A stretch of DNA of 64,000 bases from Escherichia coli (GTDB taxonomy: Bacteria > Pseudomonadota > Gammaproteobacteria > Enterobacterales > Enterobacteriaceae): assembly GCF_001677475.2 (NCBI RefSeq), contig NZ_CP015229.1; one strand, written 5' to 3'. The notes below the pieces were generated by a model, which ran no database searches, was not told the DNA's origin, and was given only the letters and a program-made list of their open reading frames with translations. The stretch's first letter is position 1, and each line of letters begins with the position of its first letter. The position numbers were made by a program, and so were the translations under genes. Of this stretch, positions 7,050 to 31,818 are shown piece after piece.

Positions 7050-7054
7050 AGTAT

Positions 7055-7320
7055 TGTCGGATGCGTCGCGCGCCGCATCCGACACCATGCGCAGATGCCT
7101 GATGCGACGCTGGCGCGTCTTATCATGCCTACAGGTCTGAACCGTAGGTCGGATAAGGCGCTCGCGCCGCATCCGACACCGTGCGCAGATGCCTGATGCG
7201 ACGCTGGCGCGTCTTATCATGCCTACAAGTCTGAACCGTAGGTCGGATAAGGCGCTCGCGCCGCATCCGACACCGTGCGCAGATGCCTGATGCGACGCTG
7301 GCGCGTCTTATCATGCCTAC
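7055..7320. repeat. REP/BIME array: about three tandem ~95 bp units containing GCCGCATCCGACA...TGCCTGATGCGACGC palindromic units
   Basis: Near-identical units visible at ~7066, ~7161 and ~7256; typical E. coli extragenic palindromes after an operon end. Confidence 0.9.
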
Positions 7321-7472
7321 CCACTGTTTTTACACCGATAATTTTTCCCCCACCTTTTTGCGCTCATTCATATAAAAAATATATTTCCCCACGGAAACGA
7401 TTGCTTTTTATTTTCAGATGAATAGAATGCGGCGGATTTTTTGGGTTTCAAACAGCAAAAAGGGGGAATTTC

Positions 7473-7844
7473 GTGTCGCAAGATAACAACTTTAGCCAGG
7501 GGCCAGTCCCGCAGTCGGCGCGGAAAGGGGTATTGGCATTGACGTTCGTCATGCTGGGATTAACCTTCTTTTCCGCCAGTATGTGGACCGGCGGCACTCT
7601 CGGAACCGGTCTTAGCTATCATGATTTCTTCCTCGCAGTTCTCATCGGTAATCTTCTCCTCGGTATTTACACTTCATTTCTTGGTTACATTGGCGCAAAA
7701 ACCGGCCTGACCACTCATCTTCTTGCTCGCTTCTCGTTTGGTGTTAAAGGCTCATGGCTGCCTTCACTGCTGCTGGGCGGCACCCAGGTTGGCTGGTTTG
7801 GCGTTGGCGTGGCGATGTTTGCTATTCCGGTGGGCACCACATAG
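7473..7844 (+). pseudogene. codB: Cytosine permease CodB, 5' fragment (about 121 native codons) ending in 2 foreign codons and a stop created by the island junction
   Basis: Translation MSQDNNFSQGPVPQSARKG...VAMFAIPVG then TT*; the native continuation KATGLDIN... is found at 30919. Confidence 0.9.
7833..7836. other. Left island/chromosome junction (attL-like), GGCA shared with the right junction
   Basis: Native codB identity is lost after 7836; GGCA recurs at 30919-30922 where codB resumes. Confidence 0.6.
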
Positions 7845-7921
7845 GTCAATACCACCACAATAAAATTTTCCAATAAAAAAGCCCCATCACAAGGACAGGG
7901 CTATAGAATCAATTACTTACA

Positions 7922-8227
7922 TCACTTAATGTCTTTCATTCTACGAATACGCGCGCTTGCTTCGGATAGTTCTTCCAGTGTTACGTGATGTGCAAGCATA
8001 TAGACAGGAGTCGGATCGAATCCCTCGTGAGTATTGATCAGATGACTATTCCCGCCTTTAAACTCATCCTGTCCATCCCATATAGCGTACACGTCATCTT
8101 CTGCTACATAGATAATCAATCCAATAGGGGAGTCAGTAAGCTGGAAGATGCAGCCAGTAGAATCAATGCGATGTTCCCGAACGTCATCAACAGTTTCAAA
8201 GTCAATCTTAATATCTTTAGTCTTCAT
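7922..8227 (-). CDS. Hypothetical protein (101 aa), first gene inside the island's left end
   Basis: ORF only; no recognisable motif. Confidence 0.45.
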   Translation of the reverse strand: MKTKDIKIDFETVDDVREHRIDSTGCIFQLTDSPIGLIIYVAEDDVYAIWDGQDEFKGGNSHLINTHEGFDPTPVYMLAHHVTLEELSEASARIRRMKDIK

Positions 8228-8527
8228 GATTTGCCCTCGCGTGAAAAATATTTTCGATTATTTATAAAAAAAGACTTGACAAAATCAAAAGGTACTGTTC
8301 CACTGGTGAAATAAAGGGAGTTTTCGGCACCCCGGTTTTTGATGTGCGTGTGAGATTTCAAAACAGGTGCAGTGCAGCCCACCAGCGCGGTCGCTACGCG
8401 ACTATTAACACCCGCCAATCCCTTTCCCCGCCTCGATCTTTCATCTCGTTATAAATCGTTTTAGGCGCTCTCCTGAATGCGCAGATCAGATAAATAATTT
8501 TACGCAAATTTAAAGGAGGATAACCGG

Positions 8528-9079
8528 ATGAAAGAAGAATTAACCCTTACAGAAATTTCCCGCTTATACGGCTATACAATTAACGCCGCTAAGAAATGGC
8601 AAGAACGAGGAATGCCATTTAATACCAATACACGACGCGTACCAGCCAAAGAGGGGACCGAGTGGGTATTAAAAAATATCATCAACCCGCTTAAAGAAAC
8701 TACTGTCAAGGAACAAATCGACGTAGAGAAGTTACGCCGTGAGAGAGCATTAGCGGATGCAGCCGAACGAGAGAACCAGGAAGCAATGAATCTCCTGATT
8801 CCGGTCGGTTATGTAGAACAGGAACTAGCGGAATATTGCGGAAAGGTGAAACAGACTATTTTGCAGATCGCCACAATCGATGCTTTAGAAATTCTTGAAT
8901 CTGCCACTGACCAGAAAACATTGAAGAATAAGCTAAGGGAGATCATCGAGCGTCGTTTAAATGAAGTAGGGGACTTGTTCGAAAATGCGGATTTGGGAGA
9001 AGACGAGGAAGAAGAATTACCATTAATCGATGAACCGGAACAAGAACCAGAAGAAGACGATGAATTTGATGTGTCTTAA
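8528..9079 (+). CDS. Nu1-like small terminase / DNA-packaging HTH protein (183 aa) with acidic C-terminal tail
   Basis: N-terminus LTLTEISRLYGYTINAAKKWQERGMPF and EKLRRE segment resemble lambda Nu1 (QLADIFGASIRTIQNWQEQGMPV...EKLRRE); RBS AGGAGG upstream. Confidence 0.65.
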   Translation: MKEELTLTEISRLYGYTINAAKKWQERGMPFNTNTRRVPAKEGTEWVLKNIINPLKETTVKEQIDVEKLRRERALADAAERENQEAMNLLIPVGYVEQELAEYCGKVKQTILQIATIDALEILESATDQKTLKNKLREIIERRLNEVGDLFENADLGEDEEEELPLIDEPEQEPEEDDEFDVS

Positions 9080-23346: not shown

Positions 23347-26271
23347 ATGCAATCAATCCAATTTAAACGAACTAGTGTTTCTGGCAAAAAACCTACGCCG
23401 GAACAATTACAGGTCGGTGAGGTAGCAATCAACCTTAAAGACCATGTTATTTTCACCAAAGACCGAGATAATGCCGTAGTTCAAATCTCTGTTTCTCCTG
23501 AAACTCACACTGCATTAGAAACTAAAGTTAATGCGAATAAGAAAGAATTAGACGGCAAGATTACTACAAATCACAACAATATTAACGCTAAAGTAGATGA
23601 AATTAAACAAACTACTGATGCAACTATCGCAGCAAATCACGCAGAAATTAACAATAAAGTTGATGTGATTAAGCGCGAAACCGATGCGACAATCACGGCT
23701 AATAAAAATAAAGCTGCTTCCGACCTTGCTGGCGTTAAAGCTGAATTGTCCGATACCATCACCGCTAATAAAAATGCGGCTGCTGTAGCAACTCAGGAAC
23801 TGGACACCCGCATCAATAAAAAAGTTGATGATAACAAAGCTAAAACTGATGCAACTATCGCCAGCAATCACAAAGCAATCAATGACAAAGTTGATTTGAT
23901 TAAGGCCGAGACTGACCGCACTATCGCAGCAAATAAAACATATGCTGATACTCAGCTAACTAATGCTACTAATGATCTGAATACTGTCATTGCTGCAAAT
24001 AAAAAAGAAGCTGCTGATAGCGTGGCTGCATTAACTAAGACTGTAAACACTAAAGATACAGCGATTCATAGAAAAGTTGACGAGAATAAAGCACTGACCG
24101 ACGCGGAATTATCCCGTTTGTCTGGACGACTTGAAGATGTTGCTAGTATTGGTCAAAACCGAGGCGAATTGCCAGTAGATGCTAATCTTGATCACTATGG
24201 TCCACGTTCAGAATTTGCTGGTATTTGGGGTAAATCGACTTCAACGAATGCACAACCAAGTCACAATTTCCCAGAAGAAAATGCTGTAGGTGTTCTGGAA
24301 GTTTTCACAGGCGGTCAATTCTCTGGGACTCAGCGTTATACAACACGCTACGGTAATATCTACATTCGTTCTCTTACCGCTACATGGAATGGTACTGATG
24401 GTCCGTGGTCGCCGTGGCGCAATATTCAGATGGGTACACGTCCGCTTTCGTCAACCATCGATCTTAATGATTTGGGTGGAGTTGAGCATTTTGGTTTATG
24501 GCGCAATAGCTCTAACTCAATTGCGGCTCTAGAAAGGAATTTCCCAGAAGCTGGGGCGATGGCACAAGGTCTTTTAGAAGTCTTTGAGGGTGGCAACTAC
24601 TCCCGCACTCAGCGTTATACGACCAGAATGGGCGTTGTATATGTTCGCTGTCTTGCTGCTGCATGGGATGCTAGTGCTCCTAAATGGGGTCCGTGGCAAC
24701 AAGTAGGTAATGTAACACCGTCTACTTTCTATGACGGAAACCTGAACAACTTCAAAACACCTGGTTTATATAACATTTTAGGCACTGACAAAGTTACTAA
24801 CCGTCCTGTTGCAGAAGGTGTTCCGGTTGAGATGACCGCATTGCTTGAGGTTAAACAGCGTGCTTCCGGTGGCGCTATTTTCCAACGTTTCACTACCGCA
24901 GGAACGGGAACTACTACCCGTGGTCGTGTTTTTGAACGTGCAATGACAAATAATATCTGGGGAGATTGGCACGAAGTACATACATCATATTCTATGCCAA
25001 TTACTTTAGGTATCGGTGGGATTAAAACACAATTAGAATCTTTAGATTGGCAAACTTTTGATTTTGTTCCTGGTAGCATGTTTAGCGTGCCATTGAATAA
25101 AATTACCAATATGCCAGCAAAAATGGATTGGGGAACAATTGACGGAAACCTGATCATGTTTTCCGTTGGTCCTAGTGAACACACTAGCACAGGGCGTACT
25201 GTTCAGGTTTGGCGTGGTACTGTGTCTCAAGCAAACTACCGTTATTTTGTTGTTCGTGTATTTGGTAATTCAGGAGAGAGAACTTGCACCGTTCGCCGTG
25301 TTGCTCTTGAGGATGGTCGCCATACATGGACAGCACAACAAGATTTTAACGGCGCGGTTAACTTCGGTGGGTCTGTTGTTAACTTTAAAACAGCCACTAA
25401 CTTTAATAACACTACCAGTTTTAAAACAGAAGCTAAATTTCTTTCATCTAATGCATTCCGTATGTATGGCGGTAATTTTGGTGCATTCTTGCGTAATGAT
25501 GGTGAAAGTGTTTATCTTCTTTCCACCAATGAAAATGATAAAGATGGAAACTATAATACAAATAGACCTTTCCGGTATCAGTTAAAAACTGGTGATGTTA
25601 CTTTGGGTGGAACTAGCGGTGCTGATATTTTAAGATTAAAAAGTAGTTCTCTTGCTGCTACCTTTGGCGGTGATGTTAATTTAAGTAAAGGCGTATTGAC
25701 GTTTGAAGCTGGCGGTAAGCAATCTCGCGATTATTTCCGGTTTAATCATTGGGGTGATAGCAATAAAGCTCGCGATAACATCATTCAGTTAGAAGATAGT
25801 AAAGGTGCTCATTTTTCCACTGAACGCACACTGGCAACGGGTGCAATCAAAACTAAGTTCTTTGGTGAAGTTGAATCCGATGGTCGATTAACTATTAAAC
25901 GTCCGGGTGATGCTATTGTATTATCGACTACAGCTAGCAACTCGTTGCATATTCGTGGTGATGTTGGTGGAAGCAATAACTGGTATATTGGTAAAGGTGG
26001 TGCTGATAATTCACTAGCATTTTATAGCTACGCAACTAAAGCGGGTATACACATCACAAATAATGGTGAGATATCATTTGCCCCGCAAAATTTTGCTGGT
26101 ATTAACATTAACAAAGACCGTATCTATATCAATGCTACACAATGGATTGCTAATCATTCCGGTTCATGGGATGGACAGTGGAGAGAAGAAGCACCCATCT
26201 TTATTGATCAGGGTAGTGTTGGACAAGATAGCTATTATCCTCTTATTAAAGGACATAGCCAGATCACAGGT
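23347..26271 (+). CDS. Tail fibre protein (974 codons), 3' end interrupted by an IS3-family element
   Basis: Repeated KVDxIKxxTDATIxANxxxIN helical repeats; C-terminal GSNNWYIGKGGADN resembles T7 gp17 tip motif NNWYIGRGSDN; stop codon TGA is the first 3 bases of the IS. Confidence 0.75.
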
Positions 26272-26328
26272 TGAATCGCCACGGGTTTAACAGACACCTC
26301 AGAGTCATTTAAGATGGCTTAAAGAGAG

Positions 26329-26613
26329 GTGCCCATGAGCGGTAAGCGTTATCCCGAAGAGTTTAAAATTGAAGCAGTCAAACAGGTTGTTGATCGCGGT
26401 TATTCTGTTGCCAGCGTTGCAACACGTCTCGATATCACCACCCACAGCCTTTACGCCTGGATAAAGAAGTACGGTCCGGATTCTTCCGCTAATAAAGAAC
26501 AGTCAGATGCTCAGGCCGAGATCCGCCGTCTCCAGAAAGAGCTGAAGCGGGTTACCGACGAACGGGACATATTAAAAAAAGCCGCGGCGTACTTCGCAAA
26601 GCTGTCCGACTGA
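26329..26613 (+). CDS. IS3-family transposase OrfA (HTH, leucine-zipper region)
   Basis: 94 aa ORF MSGKRYPEEFKIEAVKQVV...; ends shortly after the A7 slippery site. Confidence 0.85.
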   Translation: MPMSGKRYPEEFKIEAVKQVVDRGYSVASVATRLDITTHSLYAWIKKYGPDSSANKEQSDAQAEIRRLQKELKRVTDERDILKKAAAYFAKLSD

Positions 26614-27482
26614 GGTACGCCTTTATCCGTGACAACACCTGTTGCTGGCCTGTTCGCCTGCTCTGTCGGGTGCTGGATGTTCATCCCAGTGGTTTTTACG
26701 CCTGGCTTCAGCAGCCGCATTCACAACGCCATCAGGCAGACCTGAGGCTGACAGGGCAGATTAAACAGTTCTGGCTGGAATCGGGATGCGTCTATGGTTA
26801 TCGCAAAATCCATCTGGATCTGCGGGACAGCGGGCAACAGTGCGGAGTGAACAGAGTCTGGCGACTGATGAAACGTGTCGGGATAAAGGCTCAGGTCGGA
26901 TACCGGAGCCCGCGGGCACGTAAAGGCGAGGCCAGTATCGTGTCGCCCAACAGGCTCCAGCGACAGTTCAATCCGGATGCTCCGGATAAGCGTTGGGTAA
27001 CGGACATAACCTACATCAGGACCCACGAAGGCTGGCTGTATCTTGCCGTGGTTGTTGATCTGTTCTCACGCAAAATTATCGGCTGGTCCATGCAATCCCG
27101 GATGACAAAGGACATTGTCCTGAACGCACTGCTGATGGCTGTATGGCGCCGTAATCCCCAAAAACAGGTGCTGGTTCATTCGGATCAGGGCAGTCAGTAC
27201 ACAAGCCATGAGTGGCAGTCGTTCCTGAAATCACACGGCCTGGAGGGCAGCATGAGCCGTCGCGGTAACTGCCATGATAATGCGGTTGCAGAAAGCTTTT
27301 TCCAGTTGTTGAAACGCGAACGGATAAAGAAAAAGATCTACGGAACGCGGGAAGAAGCCCGCAGCGATATTTTTGATTACATCGAAATGTTTTATAACAG
27401 TAAGCGTCGGCATGGTTCCAGCGATCAGATGTCACCGACAGAATATGAAAACCAGTATTATCAACGGCTCGGAAGTGTCTAG
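26575..27482 (+). CDS. IS3-family transposase OrfB (integrase catalytic DDE domain), expressed as OrfAB by -1 frameshift; ORF-track ATG at 26670
   Basis: -1 frame relative to orfA, open from the slippery site; motifs WVTDITYIRT, VVDLFSRKIIGW, HSDQGSQYTS, NAVAESFF. Confidence 0.85.
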
Positions 27483-27548
27483 ATTATCCGTGGCGATTCA
27501 GACAAATTTATTAAATTTGGAATCACTACCCGAAAACCAGAAGAACGA

Positions 27549-28011: not shown

Positions 28012-29709
28012 TTAAATTCCAAATTCCTGCAACAATCCCGGTTGTTCTTCTTCTGGTTTCCAGTTCTTATCTGTCAGCATTTCTAAACATGGATGCAGAA
28101 CAAGCCCGTTGCTCTCCAGAATCTGCCTATCATTGATAGTCTTCACGTCTACAAAAATTCTCCCTTTCCGGTTACGGCGTGACCTCTCGATCACTATCCT
28201 TTGCGTCTTCCCGTCGATGTACTCCATCACAAAATGATTATAATTGGTATCAATCTTGTAACATTTTATAGACTTAACAGCTTCTTTAATCTTCAATCGA
28301 ACTTTTAACCGTTCCTCGCTGCAAACATCCTCTAAATCAAATTGTGCGAGCTTCTCCCAGCCTTGAGAATCAACTGAATACATGTTCTCTTCTATTACCT
28401 TAATCTGGTTATAGATGGCCTCACGCTCATGATTCAGGGTAGTAATCTGGTCGGCTAACTCCTTCGTTGCTCCTGTCATTGCAGAAAGACTAATCAGGTT
28501 ATCAATCTTGCGTGAAATGTCTTCAATCTGGGCTTGCATTCCTGGGATCGGATTGGCCTTATCCTCAGCAATCCAGATTTTATCCGCCAGCAATTGCAAT
28601 ACAGCCTTATCCAGTTGATCACCACGAAAGCCCCAATTTGGATGATCACAATTGGTCCTCCTGCTATCTGCGCCATCGCACATATAACGATATTGGGCTA
28701 ATCTCTCTTTTGATGCTCCGCTTCTCTTAACCATACTTGCCCCACAATGACCACATCTAAGCAAACCAGCACCACTTAACAGGGTAATAACAGGACTAGA
28801 CTTAGTAGGATAAGAAAACGACCTCAGTCCTATAGTCTTCTTGAGTTGATAGAACTCGGCATCTTCCATCACTCGCGGGTAATAATCCTTTAACTCATAT
28901 GTCACACCTTCAATGGTTATCTCTTTGATACCAAGTAAAGCGCGGTTAGAGAACATCCTGGCTAACATAGAACGCGCCCATTTCTTAGGGGTATCTTTGT
29001 TCGTTGTGTAATTAGGCGGGGCGATTCTTTCATTCAGATAATCAAGAACCCGACCATTAGAATAACCATTCTGTTTTAATTCAACGATTTTCTTGATAAC
29101 AGGAAAATACACCGGATGTGGAAGCACATAACCCGATGAAGTATCAGCCCACCATATATTGCGACCAACTTCCTCGATTGCCACTGCCGGATTTTGTGGA
29201 TTCTCCTGATGGGCTTTAACCTTGAGTAGTGCGCTTGAGTTAGTGCGATTGCGTTTAGTCTGACTTTCCTCATTTGCACGAGCAAACAACATTACACTCA
29301 ACAGTAAATCGATGGGATTAGCATTAACCGATTCTTTGCTATATACCTTCCCATCCATACCAGTAACAATTGTTATTCCCCTGCGGATGATCGAAAGGAA
29401 TAGCTCTTGAGCTTCAATAACAGATTGACGGGAGATACGGTCTAAGTTTTCCACCACCAGCCAGCTACCAACCGGAACGGATCGACCAATTTCATCCAGA
29501 AAACGAGATAATGCACCTGTTTTACTGTTAGCCCCTTTGAATGCAGATACACCGAAATCCTGATAGGAAGTAACTAGCTCAAGATCATATTTTGCGGCTA
29601 TCTCTTTCGCTGTTCTCTTCTGGCGTTCAAATGAGCTACCATCGGCTTGCTTCATGGAAGAGAAGCGAATATACGAATACAGTTTAGTTTTCATACCATT
29701 TCCAAACAA
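28012..29709 (-). CDS. Large serine recombinase (integrase), 565 aa
   Basis: N-terminal resolvase-type catalytic domain (YSYIRFSSMKQ with candidate nucleophile Ser, VVENLDRISRQ), recombinase domain, Cys-rich zinc ribbon CGHCG...C...C, C-terminal coiled-coil. Confidence 0.88.
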   Translation of the reverse strand: MFGNGMKTKLYSYIRFSSMKQADGSSFERQKRTAKEIAAKYDLELVTSYQDFGVSAFKGANSKTGALSRFLDEIGRSVPVGSWLVVENLDRISRQSVIEAQELFLSIIRRGITIVTGMDGKVYSKESVNANPIDLLLSVMLFARANEESQTKRNRTNSSALLKVKAHQENPQNPAVAIEEVGRNIWWADTSSGYVLPHPVYFPVIKKIVELKQNGYSNGRVLDYLNERIAPPNYTTNKDTPKKWARSMLARMFSNRALLGIKEITIEGVTYELKDYYPRVMEDAEFYQLKKTIGLRSFSYPTKSSPVITLLSGAGLLRCGHCGASMVKRSGASKERLAQYRYMCDGADSRRTNCDHPNWGFRGDQLDKAVLQLLADKIWIAEDKANPIPGMQAQIEDISRKIDNLISLSAMTGATKELADQITTLNHEREAIYNQIKVIEENMYSVDSQGWEKLAQFDLEDVCSEERLKVRLKIKEAVKSIKCYKIDTNYNHFVMEYIDGKTQRIVIERSRRNRKGRIFVDVKTINDRQILESNGLVLHPCLEMLTDKNWKPEEEQPGLLQEFGI

Positions 29710-29757: not shown

Positions 29758-30171
29758 TTAAAGAATTTCACGGCAGCTAATCAGGGTATAAGATGTATCA
29801 CCTTTTTTAACATCAAATATAGGAGCGCCATCTACAGAATGCAGATATTTGATGTAGGATTTACCATCTTCGGAACCATAATATTCTTCTTTCTCGTTCT
29901 TATCTTCTTTCAGTTTCGGGCTTTTGATTGTTCTATCAAATACCGGATCGTTGAAAGCAAATTGACTATTATCATCATTCACGCGAACTTTCACACCGAT
30001 AAAGCCACGGTATTTTCCAGACGGTGCATGATAATAACGGTCGCCATCACTCAGGTAGCGTGTATCATCTCCTTTATGTTCGAAGTAGGAATTACACACA
30101 TAATAGGTATTAGCATTAGCAGTACCAACCAAACCCATAGCAAGAACGATACCAGCGATAATCTTTTTCAT
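29758..30171 (-). CDS. Exported protein (137 aa) with N-terminal signal peptide
   Basis: MKKIIAGIVLAMGLVGTANA signal-like N-terminus; two Cys residues; no other motif. Confidence 0.5.
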   Translation of the reverse strand: MKKIIAGIVLAMGLVGTANANTYYVCNSYFEHKGDDTRYLSDGDRYYHAPSGKYRGFIGVKVRVNDDNSQFAFNDPVFDRTIKSPKLKEDKNEKEEYYGSEDGKSYIKYLHSVDGAPIFDVKKGDTSYTLISCREIL

Positions 30172-30216
30172 AGTAGAATTTCCTCTTGTTATTTGAATTA
30201 CGATATATTTATATCG

Positions 30217-30342
30217 TTAAAAGTTGATGCTGATTACCAGACCAAACACAACCGCACCAATCAAATCAATCCAGTTAATACACAATCCGCTATATTCTTT
30301 CTTGAATGTCTTAGATGAAATGCCATCATGAAATTGTTTCAT
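30217..30342 (-). CDS. Small membrane peptide (41 aa, MKQFHDGISSKTFKKEYSGLCINWIDLIGAVVFGLVISINF)
   Basis: Hand-translated; RBS GGGGTGA; C-terminal hydrophobic helix. Confidence 0.35.
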   Translation of the reverse strand: MKQFHDGISSKTFKKEYSGLCINWIDLIGAVVFGLVISINF

Positions 30343-30345
30343 TGC

Positions 30346-30426
30346 TCACCCCATACTAACGACAAGATAAGAAAGGCTGATCATAGTTGTGAGACTACCT
30401 CCCACGAATGAGATAAAAGCTAACAT
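30346..30426 (-). CDS. Small hydrophobic peptide (26 aa, MLAFISFVGGSLTTMISLSYLVVSMG)
   Basis: Hand-translated; RBS GGAGA 8 nt upstream; immediately precedes the 41-aa peptide. Confidence 0.3.
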   Translation of the reverse strand: MLAFISFVGGSLTTMISLSYLVVSMG

Positions 30427-30483
30427 GTTTGATTCTCCAGTTTAAAAAGCGGTGGGAATTGCACCCACCAAATTAGAAATTAA

Positions 30484-30891
30484 TTAAGCGCGAACGATGG
30501 TCAGAGTATCCAGCAAACCTTTTTCGTATAATTCGAAACACGTTTTATATTGCTCAATCTTCCAACCGTAGCGGGTGATCTTATTCAGTAGAACAATCGC
30601 GCTACTTTCATCCAGATATTGCCCCTGCTTACCGATTACATAAGTCTCACGATTCAGCTTTAACTTACGGAAACCTTTAACACCTAATTCCTTAGCCACC
30701 GCTTTAATCTCTTTAATCTCACCTTCTGCGGCTACATATTCAGCGTCGATAATCTCAGGTGATGATCTCAGTGCTACCAGAACTAAGGCCATTGCTTCTT
30801 CTTCGGTACGAGCAACACCAGCTTTCTCGAAAGTCATCTCACCAAATTTACGAATCATGATATTGAACATTGTCTGTATTCCTGCGTTCAA
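30484..30891 (-). CDS. Hypothetical protein (135 aa; alternative start at MFNIMIRK), last gene before the right junction
   Basis: ORF only; start faces the right island boundary. Confidence 0.45.
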   Translation of the reverse strand: MNAGIQTMFNIMIRKFGEMTFEKAGVARTEEEAMALVLVALRSSPEIIDAEYVAAEGEIKEIKAVAKELGVKGFRKLKLNRETYVIGKQGQYLDESSAIVLLNKITRYGWKIEQYKTCFELYEKGLLDTLTIVRA

Positions 30892-30912
30892 ACTTAATGT
30901 GGTTGGAATGAT

Positions 30913-31818
30913 ATGTTAGGCAAGGCAACCGGGCTGGATATTAATATGCTGATTGCAGTCTCCGGTTTACTGATGACCGTCACCGTCTTCTTTGGCATTT
31001 CGGCGCTGACGGTTCTTTCGGTGATTGCGGTTCCGGCTATCGCCTGCCTGGGCGGTTATTCCGTGTGGCTGGCCGTTAACGGCATGGGCGGCCTGGACGC
31101 ATTAAAAGCGGTCGTTCCCGCACAACCGTTAGATTTCAATGTCGCGCTGGCGCTGGTTGTGGGGTCATTTATCAGTGCGGGCACGCTCACCGCTGACTTT
31201 GTCCGGTTTGGTCGTAATGCCAAACTGGCGGTGCTGGTGGCGATGGTGGCCTTTTTCCTCGGCAACTCGTTGATGTTTATTTTCGGTGCAGCGGGCGCGG
31301 CGGCACTGGGGATGGCGGATATCTCTGATGTGATGATTGCTCAGGGTCTGCTGCTGCCTGCGATTGTGGTGCTGGGGCTGAATATCTGGACCACCAACGA
31401 TAACGCACTCTATGCGTCGGGTTTAGGTTTCGCCAACATTACCGGTATGTCGAGTAAAACCCTTTCGGTGATTAACGGTATTATCGGTACGGTCTGCGCA
31501 CTATGGCTGTATAACAATTTTGTCGGCTGGCTGACCTTCCTTTCGGCAGCTATTCCTCCGGTAGGGGGCGTGATCATCGCTGACTATCTGATGAACCGTC
31601 GCCGCTATGAGCACTTTGCGACCACGCGTATGATGAGTGTCAATTGGGTGGCGATTCTGGCGGTCGCCTTGGGGATTGCCGCAGGCCACTGGTTACCGGG
31701 TATTGTTCCGGTCAACGCGGTATTAGGTGGCGCGCTGAGCTATCTGATCCTTAACCCGATTTTGAATCGTAAAACGACAGCAGCAATGACGCATGTGGAG
31801 GCTAACAGTGTCGAATAA
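30913..31818 (+). pseudogene. codB: Cytosine permease CodB, 3' fragment (fortuitous ATG at 30913 created by the junction)
   Basis: Translation (ML)GKATGLDINMLIAVSGLLMTVTVFFG... matches the CodB C-terminal two thirds. Confidence 0.9.
30919..30922. other. Right island/chromosome junction (attR-like), GGCA
   Basis: Native codB reading resumes at 30919 (GKATGLDIN...); imperfect inverted symmetry between the inner island ends (ACCACCACAAT at left vs reverse-complement CCAACCACATT at right). Confidence 0.6.

What the first reader, a model, noticed from the sequence alone, without database searches (positions are those of the whole stretch)
7922..8227. Left-end orphan gene facing the attL-like junction
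A 101-aa ORF on the minus strand sits immediately inside the left boundary, separated from the Nu1-like gene by a ~300 bp gap that may contain the packaging site. There is no recognisable motif. After excision and circularisation it would be adjacent to the 135-aa right-end gene, so the two may form one unit across attP.
Basis: inference. Interest (0 to 1): 0.3.

Follow-up and report, generated by a model that had tools for sequence, protein, structure and literature searches.

The report
Swappable orphan gene at prophage end
The 101-codon reading frame is a real, conserved gene of unknown function. It is an optional single-gene cargo in a promoter-to-terminator slot at the left end of an E. 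coli/Salmonella prophage family, is also carried by some virulent T4-like phages, and is not part of a unit spanning the attachment site.

Summary
A 101-aa ORF (7922-8227, minus strand) lies 85 bp inside the left junction of a 23.1-kb prophage (7837-30922). The prophage is inserted in codB by a large serine integrase.

The ORF is a real gene: 17 homologues at 61-92% identity in E. coli and Salmonella, dN/dS 0.07-0.21.

It is optional cargo in a fixed slot: a promoter-like site, then cargo, then an intrinsic terminator, then the attL arm. Among 61 E. coli genomes holding a related prophage, 22 carry the gene. Others have an empty slot or an LprI-family gene. Salmonella relatives have 2-3-gene operons that end in the homologue.

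An 88-aa homologue (about 60% identity) sits as a single-gene insertion in 9 of 59 Krischvirus (RB49-like) lytic phage records, in the small-gene block after DNA ligase.

The idea of one unit with the 135-aa gene across attP is not supported. A terminator lies between the two genes, and they are inherited independently.

My best guess for function, unproven, is a stoichiometric binder in phage-host conflict, most likely counter-defence.

By-product: a promoter-like site (-35 in the left arm, -10 in the right arm) exists only in reconstructed attP.

The parts
7922..8227 (-). 101-aa ORF (stop codon included). The product is small and acidic (pI 4.8, net charge -9) with no signal peptide or membrane segment.
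   Evidence: AF2 model: pLDDT 82.8, order of elements helix-strand-strand-strand-(loop)-strand-helix.
7880..7902 (-). Intrinsic terminator AGCCCUGUC-CUUGU-GAUGGGGCU followed by UUUUUU, beginning 19 nt after the stop codon.
   Evidence: -12.8 kcal/mol. Salmonella relatives have AGCCUCGC/GCGGGGCU at the same place. The same terminator follows the alternative LprI cargo.
8261..8288 (-). Leftward promoter-like site P_L: TTGATT (8288-8283), 16 nt, TATAAA (8266-8261). GAGGG ribosome-binding site at 8238-8234.
   Evidence: Read from the sequence. It matches 9 of 12 consensus positions, but the consensus scan did not call it because position 6 of the -10 is not T. The -35 region is conserved in relatives with an empty slot and in Salmonella. 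Activity not shown.
7867..8265 (.). Extent of the cargo cassette (terminator, ORF, 5' leader), defined as an insertion/deletion against relatives.
   Evidence: Alignment A2. The cassette is present with identical ends in ES2 (ycdX site, different att arm). In 39EVA (same codB site) about 70 bp of unrelated filler replaces it.
7837..7866 (.). Phage arm of attL. It contains the -35-like hexamer TTGACC, read on the minus strand at 7849-7844.
7833..7836 (.). GGCA core shared by attL and attR (second copy at 30919-30922). The crossover lies within it.
8267..8527 (.). Conserved non-coding block upstream of the small terminase gene. It holds a rightward TTGACA hexamer and the invariant palindrome at 8390-8402. 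It is a candidate cos or regulatory region.
   Evidence: Function not shown.
8528..9079 (+).
   Evidence: phrog_57, E = 2.6e-15.
30484..30891 (-). Right-end gene: 135-aa ORF, probably 128 aa from the ATG at 30870. It is the first gene of the minus-strand run that ends with the integrase.
   Evidence: phrog_14908, function unknown.
30908..30913 (-). -10-like hexamer TATCAT in the phage arm of attR. In attP it lies 16 nt downstream of the left-arm TTGACC.
28012..29709 (-). Large serine recombinase (integrase).
   Evidence: Pfam Resolvase, Recombinase and Zn_ribbon_recom; phrog_95, E = 1e-55.

Best explanation
The ORF is a genuine single-gene cargo cassette of the 'moron' kind. It sits in a dedicated expression slot at the left end of a temperate siphovirus-like prophage family of E. 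coli and Salmonella.

The slot has four parts in order: a conserved leftward promoter-like site P_L, variable cargo, a conserved intrinsic terminator, and the attP left arm. The gene is transcribed outward, towards the host junction, and its transcript should stop before attP. The same gene moves horizontally as a one-gene insertion into virulent T4-like Krischvirus phages, where it lies among small genes downstream of DNA ligase (by analogy with T4, an early region).

The product is a small, acidic, cytoplasmic alpha/beta protein with no catalytic motif. The one candidate catalytic cysteine, C26, is lysine in the phage homologues. Its invariant polar and aromatic residues are R20, Q29, S33, Y40, D45, Y47, W50, D54 and H62.

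Inference: it acts stoichiometrically, by binding and neutralising a protein or small molecule in phage-host or phage-phage conflict. My single best guess is a counter-defence (anti-immunity) protein.

Shown: gene reality, cassette boundaries, optional presence, predicted terminator, sharing with lytic phages. Inferred: promoter activity, expression timing, any biochemical function.

Confidence split: cargo-cassette architecture about 0.9; 'binder in a conflict role' about 0.65; specifically counter-defence about 0.35.
For: Real gene:
- Homologues at 61-92% identity.
- dN/dS 0.07-0.21.

Cassette and slot:
- The cassette has identical ends in elements at different att sites, and is absent from an element at the same site.
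- 22 of 61 related E. coli prophage-bearing genomes carry it.
- The slot is empty in 39EVA and AP027850.
- The slot holds an LprI-family gene in 14EC029 and EC42405, in the same orientation and with the same terminator.
- Salmonella has 2-3-gene operons ending in the homologue plus a terminator.

Terminator.

Lytic-phage copies:
- 9 records have an 88-aa homologue at about 60% identity.
- It lies downstream of gp30 ligase among small ORFs.
- 59 Krischvirus records share that block.
- RB49 lacks exactly this one gene between p209 and p208.

No enzyme or defence signature.

Acidic protein: pI 4.8, charge -9.

Against: - No expression data exist. P_L is only a 9-of-12 consensus match that the scanner did not call.
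- The alternative cargo in the same slot belongs to the LprI family, annotated as lysozyme inhibitors. That looks more like a lysogen-benefit gene than an anti-defence gene.
- Constitutive expression of an anti-defence protein in a lysogen would have a cost.
- In one Salmonella arrangement (L007) another copy of the terminator lies directly upstream of the gene with no obvious promoter after it. Either the terminators leak or a promoter was missed.
Confidence: 0.4

Rival explanations
1. Lysogenic-conversion or superinfection-exclusion factor. The gene is expressed from P_L in the lysogen and protects the host, and so the prophage, against other phages or stress. The lytic phages use it to exclude competitors.
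For: - Moron architecture next to att, with a promoter-like site and a terminator.
- The same slot carries an LprI-family gene in other members.
- The gene is intact in this window although the prophage has lost its tail genes.
Against: - No PADLOC match.
- It is a small soluble acidic protein without a membrane anchor, unlike the exclusion proteins I know of (T4 Imm and Sp, Cor; my own knowledge).
- It lies among the small genes downstream of ligase in strictly lytic phages, a block that by analogy with T4 holds early host-takeover and anti-defence genes (my own knowledge).
- Retention in a defective prophage may only reflect a recent deletion.
Confidence: 0.25
2. After circularisation, the 101-aa gene and the 135-aa right-end gene form one transcription or functional unit across attP.
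For: In the circular form both genes are on the same strand and collinear, about 115 bp apart. In relatives with an empty slot, P_L would read towards attP with no GC-rich hairpin in between.
Against: - A conserved terminator lies between the two genes.
- They are distributed independently: 10 of 22 and 32 of 44 discordant genomes.
- KSC64 has the 101-aa gene but no 135-aa gene.
- 39EVA has the 135-aa gene but not the 101-aa gene.
- The right-end operon has its own promoter-like site formed at attP.
- A homologue occurs in non-integrating phages.
Confidence: 0.05
3. Recombination directionality factor, or another accessory factor, for the serine integrase, encoded next to attP.
For: The gene is close to attP and is small. 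By my own recollection, several serine-integrase directionality factors are small and map near int or att.
Against: - It is absent from about two thirds of family members that have closely related integrases and the same att sites.
- It is present in lytic T4-like phages that have no integrase.
Confidence: 0.03
4. Host-takeover factor: an inhibitor of a housekeeping host protein such as a nuclease, protease, nucleoid protein or RNA polymerase factor, rather than of an immune system.
For: Small acidic proteins in the early regions of T-even phages often have this role (my own knowledge). The genomic position in Krischvirus is consistent with it. There is no catalytic motif.
Against: A toxic takeover protein is unlikely to sit behind a sigma-70-like promoter at a prophage end. 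The family is very narrow: only 2 clusters at 50% identity among 1.84 billion representatives. That is unexpected for a conserved housekeeping target.
Confidence: 0.2

Closest known systems
Phage 'morons': independently transcribed accessory cassettes in lambdoid, HK97-type and P2-type prophages
   Same: - A single extra gene present or absent between otherwise syntenic relatives.
- Flanked by a promoter-like site and an intrinsic terminator.
- Located at a prophage end.
- Alternative cargos occupy the same slot.
   Different: Base composition does not set it apart: 42.5% GC against 42.2% for the prophage. The promoter and terminator belong to the slot rather than to the gene. Expression in the lysogen has not been shown.
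Tad2 / AcrIIA7 (DUF2829) phage anti-defence proteins
   Different: - No sequence relationship: hhalign probability 0.35%.
- No Pfam DUF2829 hit.
- The DUF2829 signature motifs GWNGK and SQTD..A.DW are absent.
- Ligand binding is untested.
Small accessory genes in the variable regions of T4-like phage genomes
   Same: In Krischvirus the homologue is a one-gene presence/absence polymorphism inside a run of small co-oriented ORFs downstream of DNA ligase gp30.
   Different: The window copy is in a temperate prophage. It has 13 extra N-terminal residues and its own predicted transcription signals.
State-dependent integrase promoters of integrative elements (ICEKp1, ICEclc, ICEEc1; PMC13023037)
   Same: This concerns the by-product, not the ORF. 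A promoter for the integrase operon depends on joining the two ends of the element, so integrase transcription differs between the integrated and excised states.
   Different: Here the promoter-like site is itself split: the -35 is in one arm, the -10 is in the other, and the crossover lies in the spacer. The element is a serine-integrase prophage. The evidence is consensus matching only.

Membership tests
Moron / prophage cargo cassette | Present or absent among otherwise syntenic relatives, with sharp insertion/deletion boundaries | tested here: met
   22 of 61 related E. coli genomes carry it. Boundaries are 7867 and about 8265 against 39EVA and ES2.
Moron / prophage cargo cassette | Own transcription terminator | tested here: met
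   The terminator is predicted, not measured. It has a 9-bp stem plus a U-run. Its position is conserved in Salmonella with a compensating stem.
Moron / prophage cargo cassette | Own promoter | tested here: inconclusive
   TTGATT-16-TATAAA matches 9 of 12 consensus positions and was seen by eye. The scanner did not call it. The -35 region is conserved across the family.
Moron / prophage cargo cassette | Expressed from the repressed prophage | not testable with these tools
   Needs RNA-seq or a reporter in a lysogen.
DUF2829 (Tad2 / AcrIIA7) | Sequence or profile match to DUF2829 | tested here: not met
   No Pfam hit at E <= 10 in any of 15 members. hhalign of A3 against the Tad2 alignment A4 gives probability 0.35%. 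A PDB profile search returns no Tad2.
DUF2829 (Tad2 / AcrIIA7) | Shared fold | tested here: inconclusive
DUF2829 (Tad2 / AcrIIA7) | Binds gcADPR or cyclic nucleotides, or tracrRNA | not testable with these tools
   Biochemistry is required.
   Both genes are on the minus strand, about 115 bp apart in reconstructed attP.
   10 of 22 genomes with the 101-aa gene lack the 135-aa gene. 32 of 44 genomes with the 135-aa gene lack the 101-aa gene.
   Terminator at 7902-7880.
Serine-integrase recombination directionality factor | Present wherever the cognate integrase and att system is present, and confined to integrating elements | tested here: not met
   Absent from 39EVA and about two thirds of the family. 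Present in lytic Krischvirus.
Known anti-phage defence proteins (PADLOC) | Match to a defence-system model | tested here: not met
   0 families at E <= 1.
PD40/WD40-like beta-propeller repeat | Tandem blade repeats | tested here: not met
   The only evidence is local similarity of residues 28-59 to the 8-fold repeat FSPDGxLLAVxxDGVYRVSDGQKLF of P0019 (E = 1e-4). The protein has one such unit, not a repeat array.

The most novel reading that the evidence does not exclude
The 101-aa protein and its Krischvirus homologue (JSE gp215) found a new family of phage counter-defence proteins. The family is unrelated in sequence to Tad2/AcrIIA7 but has a similar small fold. It is traded as a one-gene cassette between temperate prophages and virulent T4-like phages of enterobacteria.
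Probability: 0.25. Interest if true: 0.6.

Novelty: new member of a known kind. Interest (0 to 1): 0.3.

Why it matters
The gene adds one well-delimited, uncharacterised protein family to the pool of candidate phage accessory factors. The family is very narrow: two clusters at 50% identity among 1.84 billion representatives.

It comes with natural comparison pairs for testing:
- RB49 lacks it and JSE has it.
- 39EVA lacks it, while the window prophage, at the same codB site, has it.

The slot it occupies (promoter, cargo, terminator) is a reusable landmark for finding other cargo genes in this prophage family.

The by-product may be of more general interest than the ORF. A promoter-like site assembled only in attP would keep the serine-integrase operon silent in the prophage. 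It would switch the operon on only in the circular or infecting form.

Tried and rejected
Searches that found no function:
- Pfam, PHROGs, PADLOC and NCBIfam on the ORF found nothing. Pfam on all 15 family members gave only noise (Pox_T4_N, E = 0.036).
- An exhaustive profile search of 1.84 billion representatives found no distant relatives beyond the phage cluster and a fragment.
- A PDB sequence profile search found nothing. Foldseek against PDB found nothing below E = 0.38.
- Rfam on the whole prophage gave 0 hits.
- Literature searches by accession and for this prophage family found nothing. Every database name for the protein is 'hypothetical'.
- The Salmonella co-cargo genes and the JSE neighbours have no informative family matches and are not homologous between the two contexts.
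- tblastn of the small terminase against 50,697 phage records found no related sequenced phage, so the cos position could not be transferred.

Ideas considered and dropped:
- A catalytic Cys-His dyad with a papain-like fold. Many weak fold hits were deubiquitinases, Cif or AvrPphB. But C26 and the DSTGC motif are not conserved in the phage homologues, which have GK.
- Homology to Tad2/AcrIIA7, rejected by hhalign.
- The overlapping plus-strand ORF 7985-8314 (109 aa). I treat it as spurious because the constraint pattern follows the minus-strand frame.

Full report
**Setting**

The window is E. coli chromosome: prpD, prpE, then codB and codA. codB is interrupted. Its first 121 codons end at 7836 and the rest resumes at 30923.

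Between the two parts lies a 23.1-kb element of 42% GC, against 53% in the flanks. It encodes:
- a small terminase-like protein (8528-9079);
- a gpA-type large terminase, a portal and a major capsid protein;
- a tail fibre;
- at the right end, on the minus strand, a large serine recombinase at 28012-29709 (Resolvase, Recombinase and Zn_ribbon_recom domains).

attL and attR share only GGCA (7833-7836 and 30919-30922). That suits a serine integrase.

ORF 7922-8227 (minus strand, 101 aa, ATG start) has a GAGGG ribosome-binding site. It lies 85 bp inside attL and exactly 300 bp from the terminase-like gene.

It is a real gene:
- The 5.8-billion-protein collection returned 17 homologues at 61-92% identity, from E. 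coli and Salmonella.
- The aligned core is strongly conserved..G.IFQL..SPIGLI.YV.EDDVYAIWDGQDEF.GG..HLI...
- Pairwise dN/dS is 0.07-0.21.

**What the locus is: a cargo slot**

Related prophages occur in 61 of 5,426 complete E. coli genomes. They are about 33-36 kb and have tail tube, a 2.4-kb hypothetical gene (possibly the tape measure) and tail tip genes. They sit in three different genes: codB, ycdX and hicB.

Only 22 of these genomes carry the ORF. Comparison with individual relatives defines the cassette:
- Strain 39EVA has its prophage at the same codB position and lacks the ORF.
- Strain ES2 has its prophage in ycdX, with a different att arm, and carries the ORF with identical cassette ends.
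- Aligning the three left ends puts the cassette at about 7867-8265.

On the coding strand the cassette starts just downstream of a promoter-like site, TTGATT-16-TATAAA (8288-8261). It matches 9 of 12 consensus positions. The scanner did not call it, because the last base of the -10 is A.

The cassette ends with a canonical intrinsic terminator at 7902-7880: a 9-bp stem, -12.8 kcal/mol, followed by U6. Three observations show the terminator is a conserved feature of the slot:
- Salmonella relatives have a terminator at the same position with a different stem, AGCCUCGC/GCGGGGCU instead of AGCCCUGUC/GAUGGGGCU. The hairpin is kept while the sequence changes.
- A near-identical variant of the E. 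coli-type terminator (two substitutions) follows a different cargo, a 259-aa LprI-family gene, in 14EC029 and EC42405.
- In 39EVA and AP027850 the slot is empty apart from about 75 bp of filler.

In Salmonella the slot holds two or three small genes. The 97-105-aa homologue is always last, next to attL.

The ORF is therefore one of several alternative cargos in a fixed slot: promoter, cargo, terminator, att arm.

**The same gene in virulent phages**

tblastn against 50,697 phage records found 9 hits, all Krischvirus (RB49-like T4-type) phages. They have an 88-aa homologue at about 60% identity.

In those phages it lies in the run of small co-oriented ORFs downstream of DNA ligase gp30. 59 Krischvirus records share that block. 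RB49 itself lacks exactly this one gene, between p209 and p208.

So the gene is an optional one-gene cassette in that setting too. Its neighbours in the two settings are unrelated.

**The protein**

It is acidic (pI 4.8, net charge -9) and has no signal peptide or membrane segment.

No Pfam, PHROG, PADLOC or NCBIfam family matches it. An exhaustive profile search of 1.84 billion representatives found only the phage cluster, a fragment, and two weak repeat-protein hits. One of those is a PD40-like blade repeat resembling residues 28-59.

With the phage homologues added to the alignment, AlphaFold gave a usable model (pLDDT 82.8, pTM 0.75). It has an N-terminal helix, a four-stranded antiparallel sheet and a long C-terminal helix.

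Fold searches gave only a weak lead:
- Foldseek against PDB found nothing.
- Both proteins belong to DUF2829, a phage anti-defence family (10.1101/2023.11.15.567273).
- Profile-profile comparison with a Tad2 alignment built from PDB sequences gave probability 0.35%.

I treat this as a weak fold-level lead, not membership.

Many other weak fold hits were papain-like enzymes. The only candidate catalytic cysteine (C26) is lysine in the phage homologues, so I dropped that idea.

**Likely function**

Shown:
- It is a real, selected gene.
- It is an optional cassette shared by temperate and virulent phages.
- It has no enzymatic or defence-system signature.

Inferred: it is a stoichiometric binder acting in phage-host or phage-phage conflict.

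I rank counter-defence first, at about 0.35. The reasons are its placement among the small genes after ligase in the lytic phages (early in T4, by analogy), its small acidic nature, and the weak Tad2/AcrIIA7 lead.

A lysogen-protective or exclusion role is second, at about 0.25. The moron architecture and the LprI-family alternative cargo favour it.

Host takeover is third, at about 0.2.

A role as recombination directionality factor is rejected. Two thirds of the family lack the gene while keeping the same integrase and att system, and lytic phages carry it.

Adjacency and collinearity in the circular form are real. Four things argue against a unit:
- The conserved terminator lies between the two genes.
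- The genes assort independently. 10 of 22 genomes with the 101-aa gene lack the 135-aa gene, and 32 of 44 genomes with the 135-aa gene lack the 101-aa gene.
- KSC64 has the 101-aa gene and a right end without the 135-aa gene.
- 39EVA has the 135-aa gene without the 101-aa gene.

Something else does span attP. Reconstructing attP from attL and attR gives, on the minus strand, a sigma-70-like site:
- the -35 is in the left arm (TTGACC, 7849-7844);
- the -10 is in the right arm (TATCAT, 30913-30908);
- the crossover core lies in the 16-nt spacer;
- the site is about 35 nt upstream of the 135-aa gene, which heads the minus-strand run ending in the integrase.

The same arrangement appears in five elements of three att types:
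- codB: TTGACC-16/17-TATCAT;
- ycdX: TTGACT-17-TATCAT;
- hicB: TTTACA-18-TATAAT.

It is absent from attB, attL and attR in every case. Matches of 10 or more of 12 positions occur at about 0.25 per kb per strand in shuffled sequence (junctions).

One caveat applies. The hexamers coincide with the dyad-symmetric TGA motifs of the two attP half-sites. They could be integrase-binding determinants, or serve both roles.

The concept is known for integrative conjugative elements (PMC13023037).

**Packaging site**

Positions 8267-8527 are conserved in all 61 relatives. They contain an invariant GC-rich palindrome at 8390-8402. No virion-end data and no sequenced phage relative exist. The suggestion is plausible but untested.

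**State of this copy**

An IS3-family element at 26272-27500, with 38-bp terminal inverted repeats, supplies the stop codon of the tail fibre ORF. It sits where relatives carry about 12 kb of tail genes. Homology to relatives resumes at 27501. This prophage is therefore almost certainly defective, yet the 101-aa gene is intact.

**Verdict**

The gene is genuine but ordinary in kind: an uncharacterised accessory cargo gene, sharply delimited, with natural comparison pairs for testing. The cross-attP unit as proposed is not supported.

Interest is 0.3. The most novel reading still open is a new counter-defence family, at about 0.25 probability.

Noticed in passing
window 7844-7849 (minus strand) and 30908-30913 (minus strand); also L001/L014, L002/L013, L024/L025, L026/L027: Reconstructed attP carries a sigma-70-like promoter on the minus strand. 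The -35 comes from the left arm, the -10 from the right arm, and the crossover lies in the spacer. It points into the run from the 135-aa gene to the integrase. It is present in 5 elements of 3 att types (codB, ycdX, hicB) and absent from attB, attL and attR. The hexamers may instead, or also, be integrase half-site motifs.
   Followed up: partly
window 26272-27500: An IS3-family insertion sequence (two transposase ORFs, 38-bp terminal inverted repeats) truncates the tail fibre gene. It replaces about 12 kb of tail genes that are present in the 33-36 kb relatives. The window prophage is a deletion derivative and is probably defective.
   Followed up: partly
window 24163-26271: The distal part of the prophage tail fibre gene is 78-82% identical in DNA to the long tail fibre distal subunit of T4-like phages. 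These include the same Krischvirus strains that carry the 101-aa homologue (UPWr_E1, G2248, G2494). This is a second sign of gene exchange between this prophage family and Krischvirus.
   Followed up: no
window 8267-8527: This non-coding block is conserved in all 61 related prophages. It holds a rightward TTGACA hexamer back-to-back with P_L, a short hairpin followed by a T-run at about 8315-8340, and an invariant palindrome GTCGC-TAC-GCGAC at 8390-8402. It is a candidate late-promoter/attenuator region and/or cos site.
   Followed up: no
window 8528-9079 versus 15497-17404: The small terminase-like gene is separated from the gpA-type large terminase by about 6.4 kb. That interval holds minus-strand genes and a Rha/Ant-like regulator. 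This split arrangement is unusual and is conserved in relatives.
   Followed up: no
L007 7930-7960 and 8300-8330 (Salmonella): The same terminator hairpin occurs twice, once after each of two successive cargo genes. This suggests that cargo cassettes are stacked by recombination at the terminator.
   Followed up: no
window 29758-30440: Between the 135-aa gene and the integrase lie a 137-aa protein with an N-terminal signal-like sequence and small hydrophobic ORFs. Relatives have an 81-aa gene there instead. This may be a second variable cargo region at the right end.
   Followed up: no
window 7050-7330: Three tandem copies of a roughly 60-bp REP/BIME-like palindromic unit lie between prpE and codB. 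This is an ordinary E. coli intergenic repeat.
   Followed up: no
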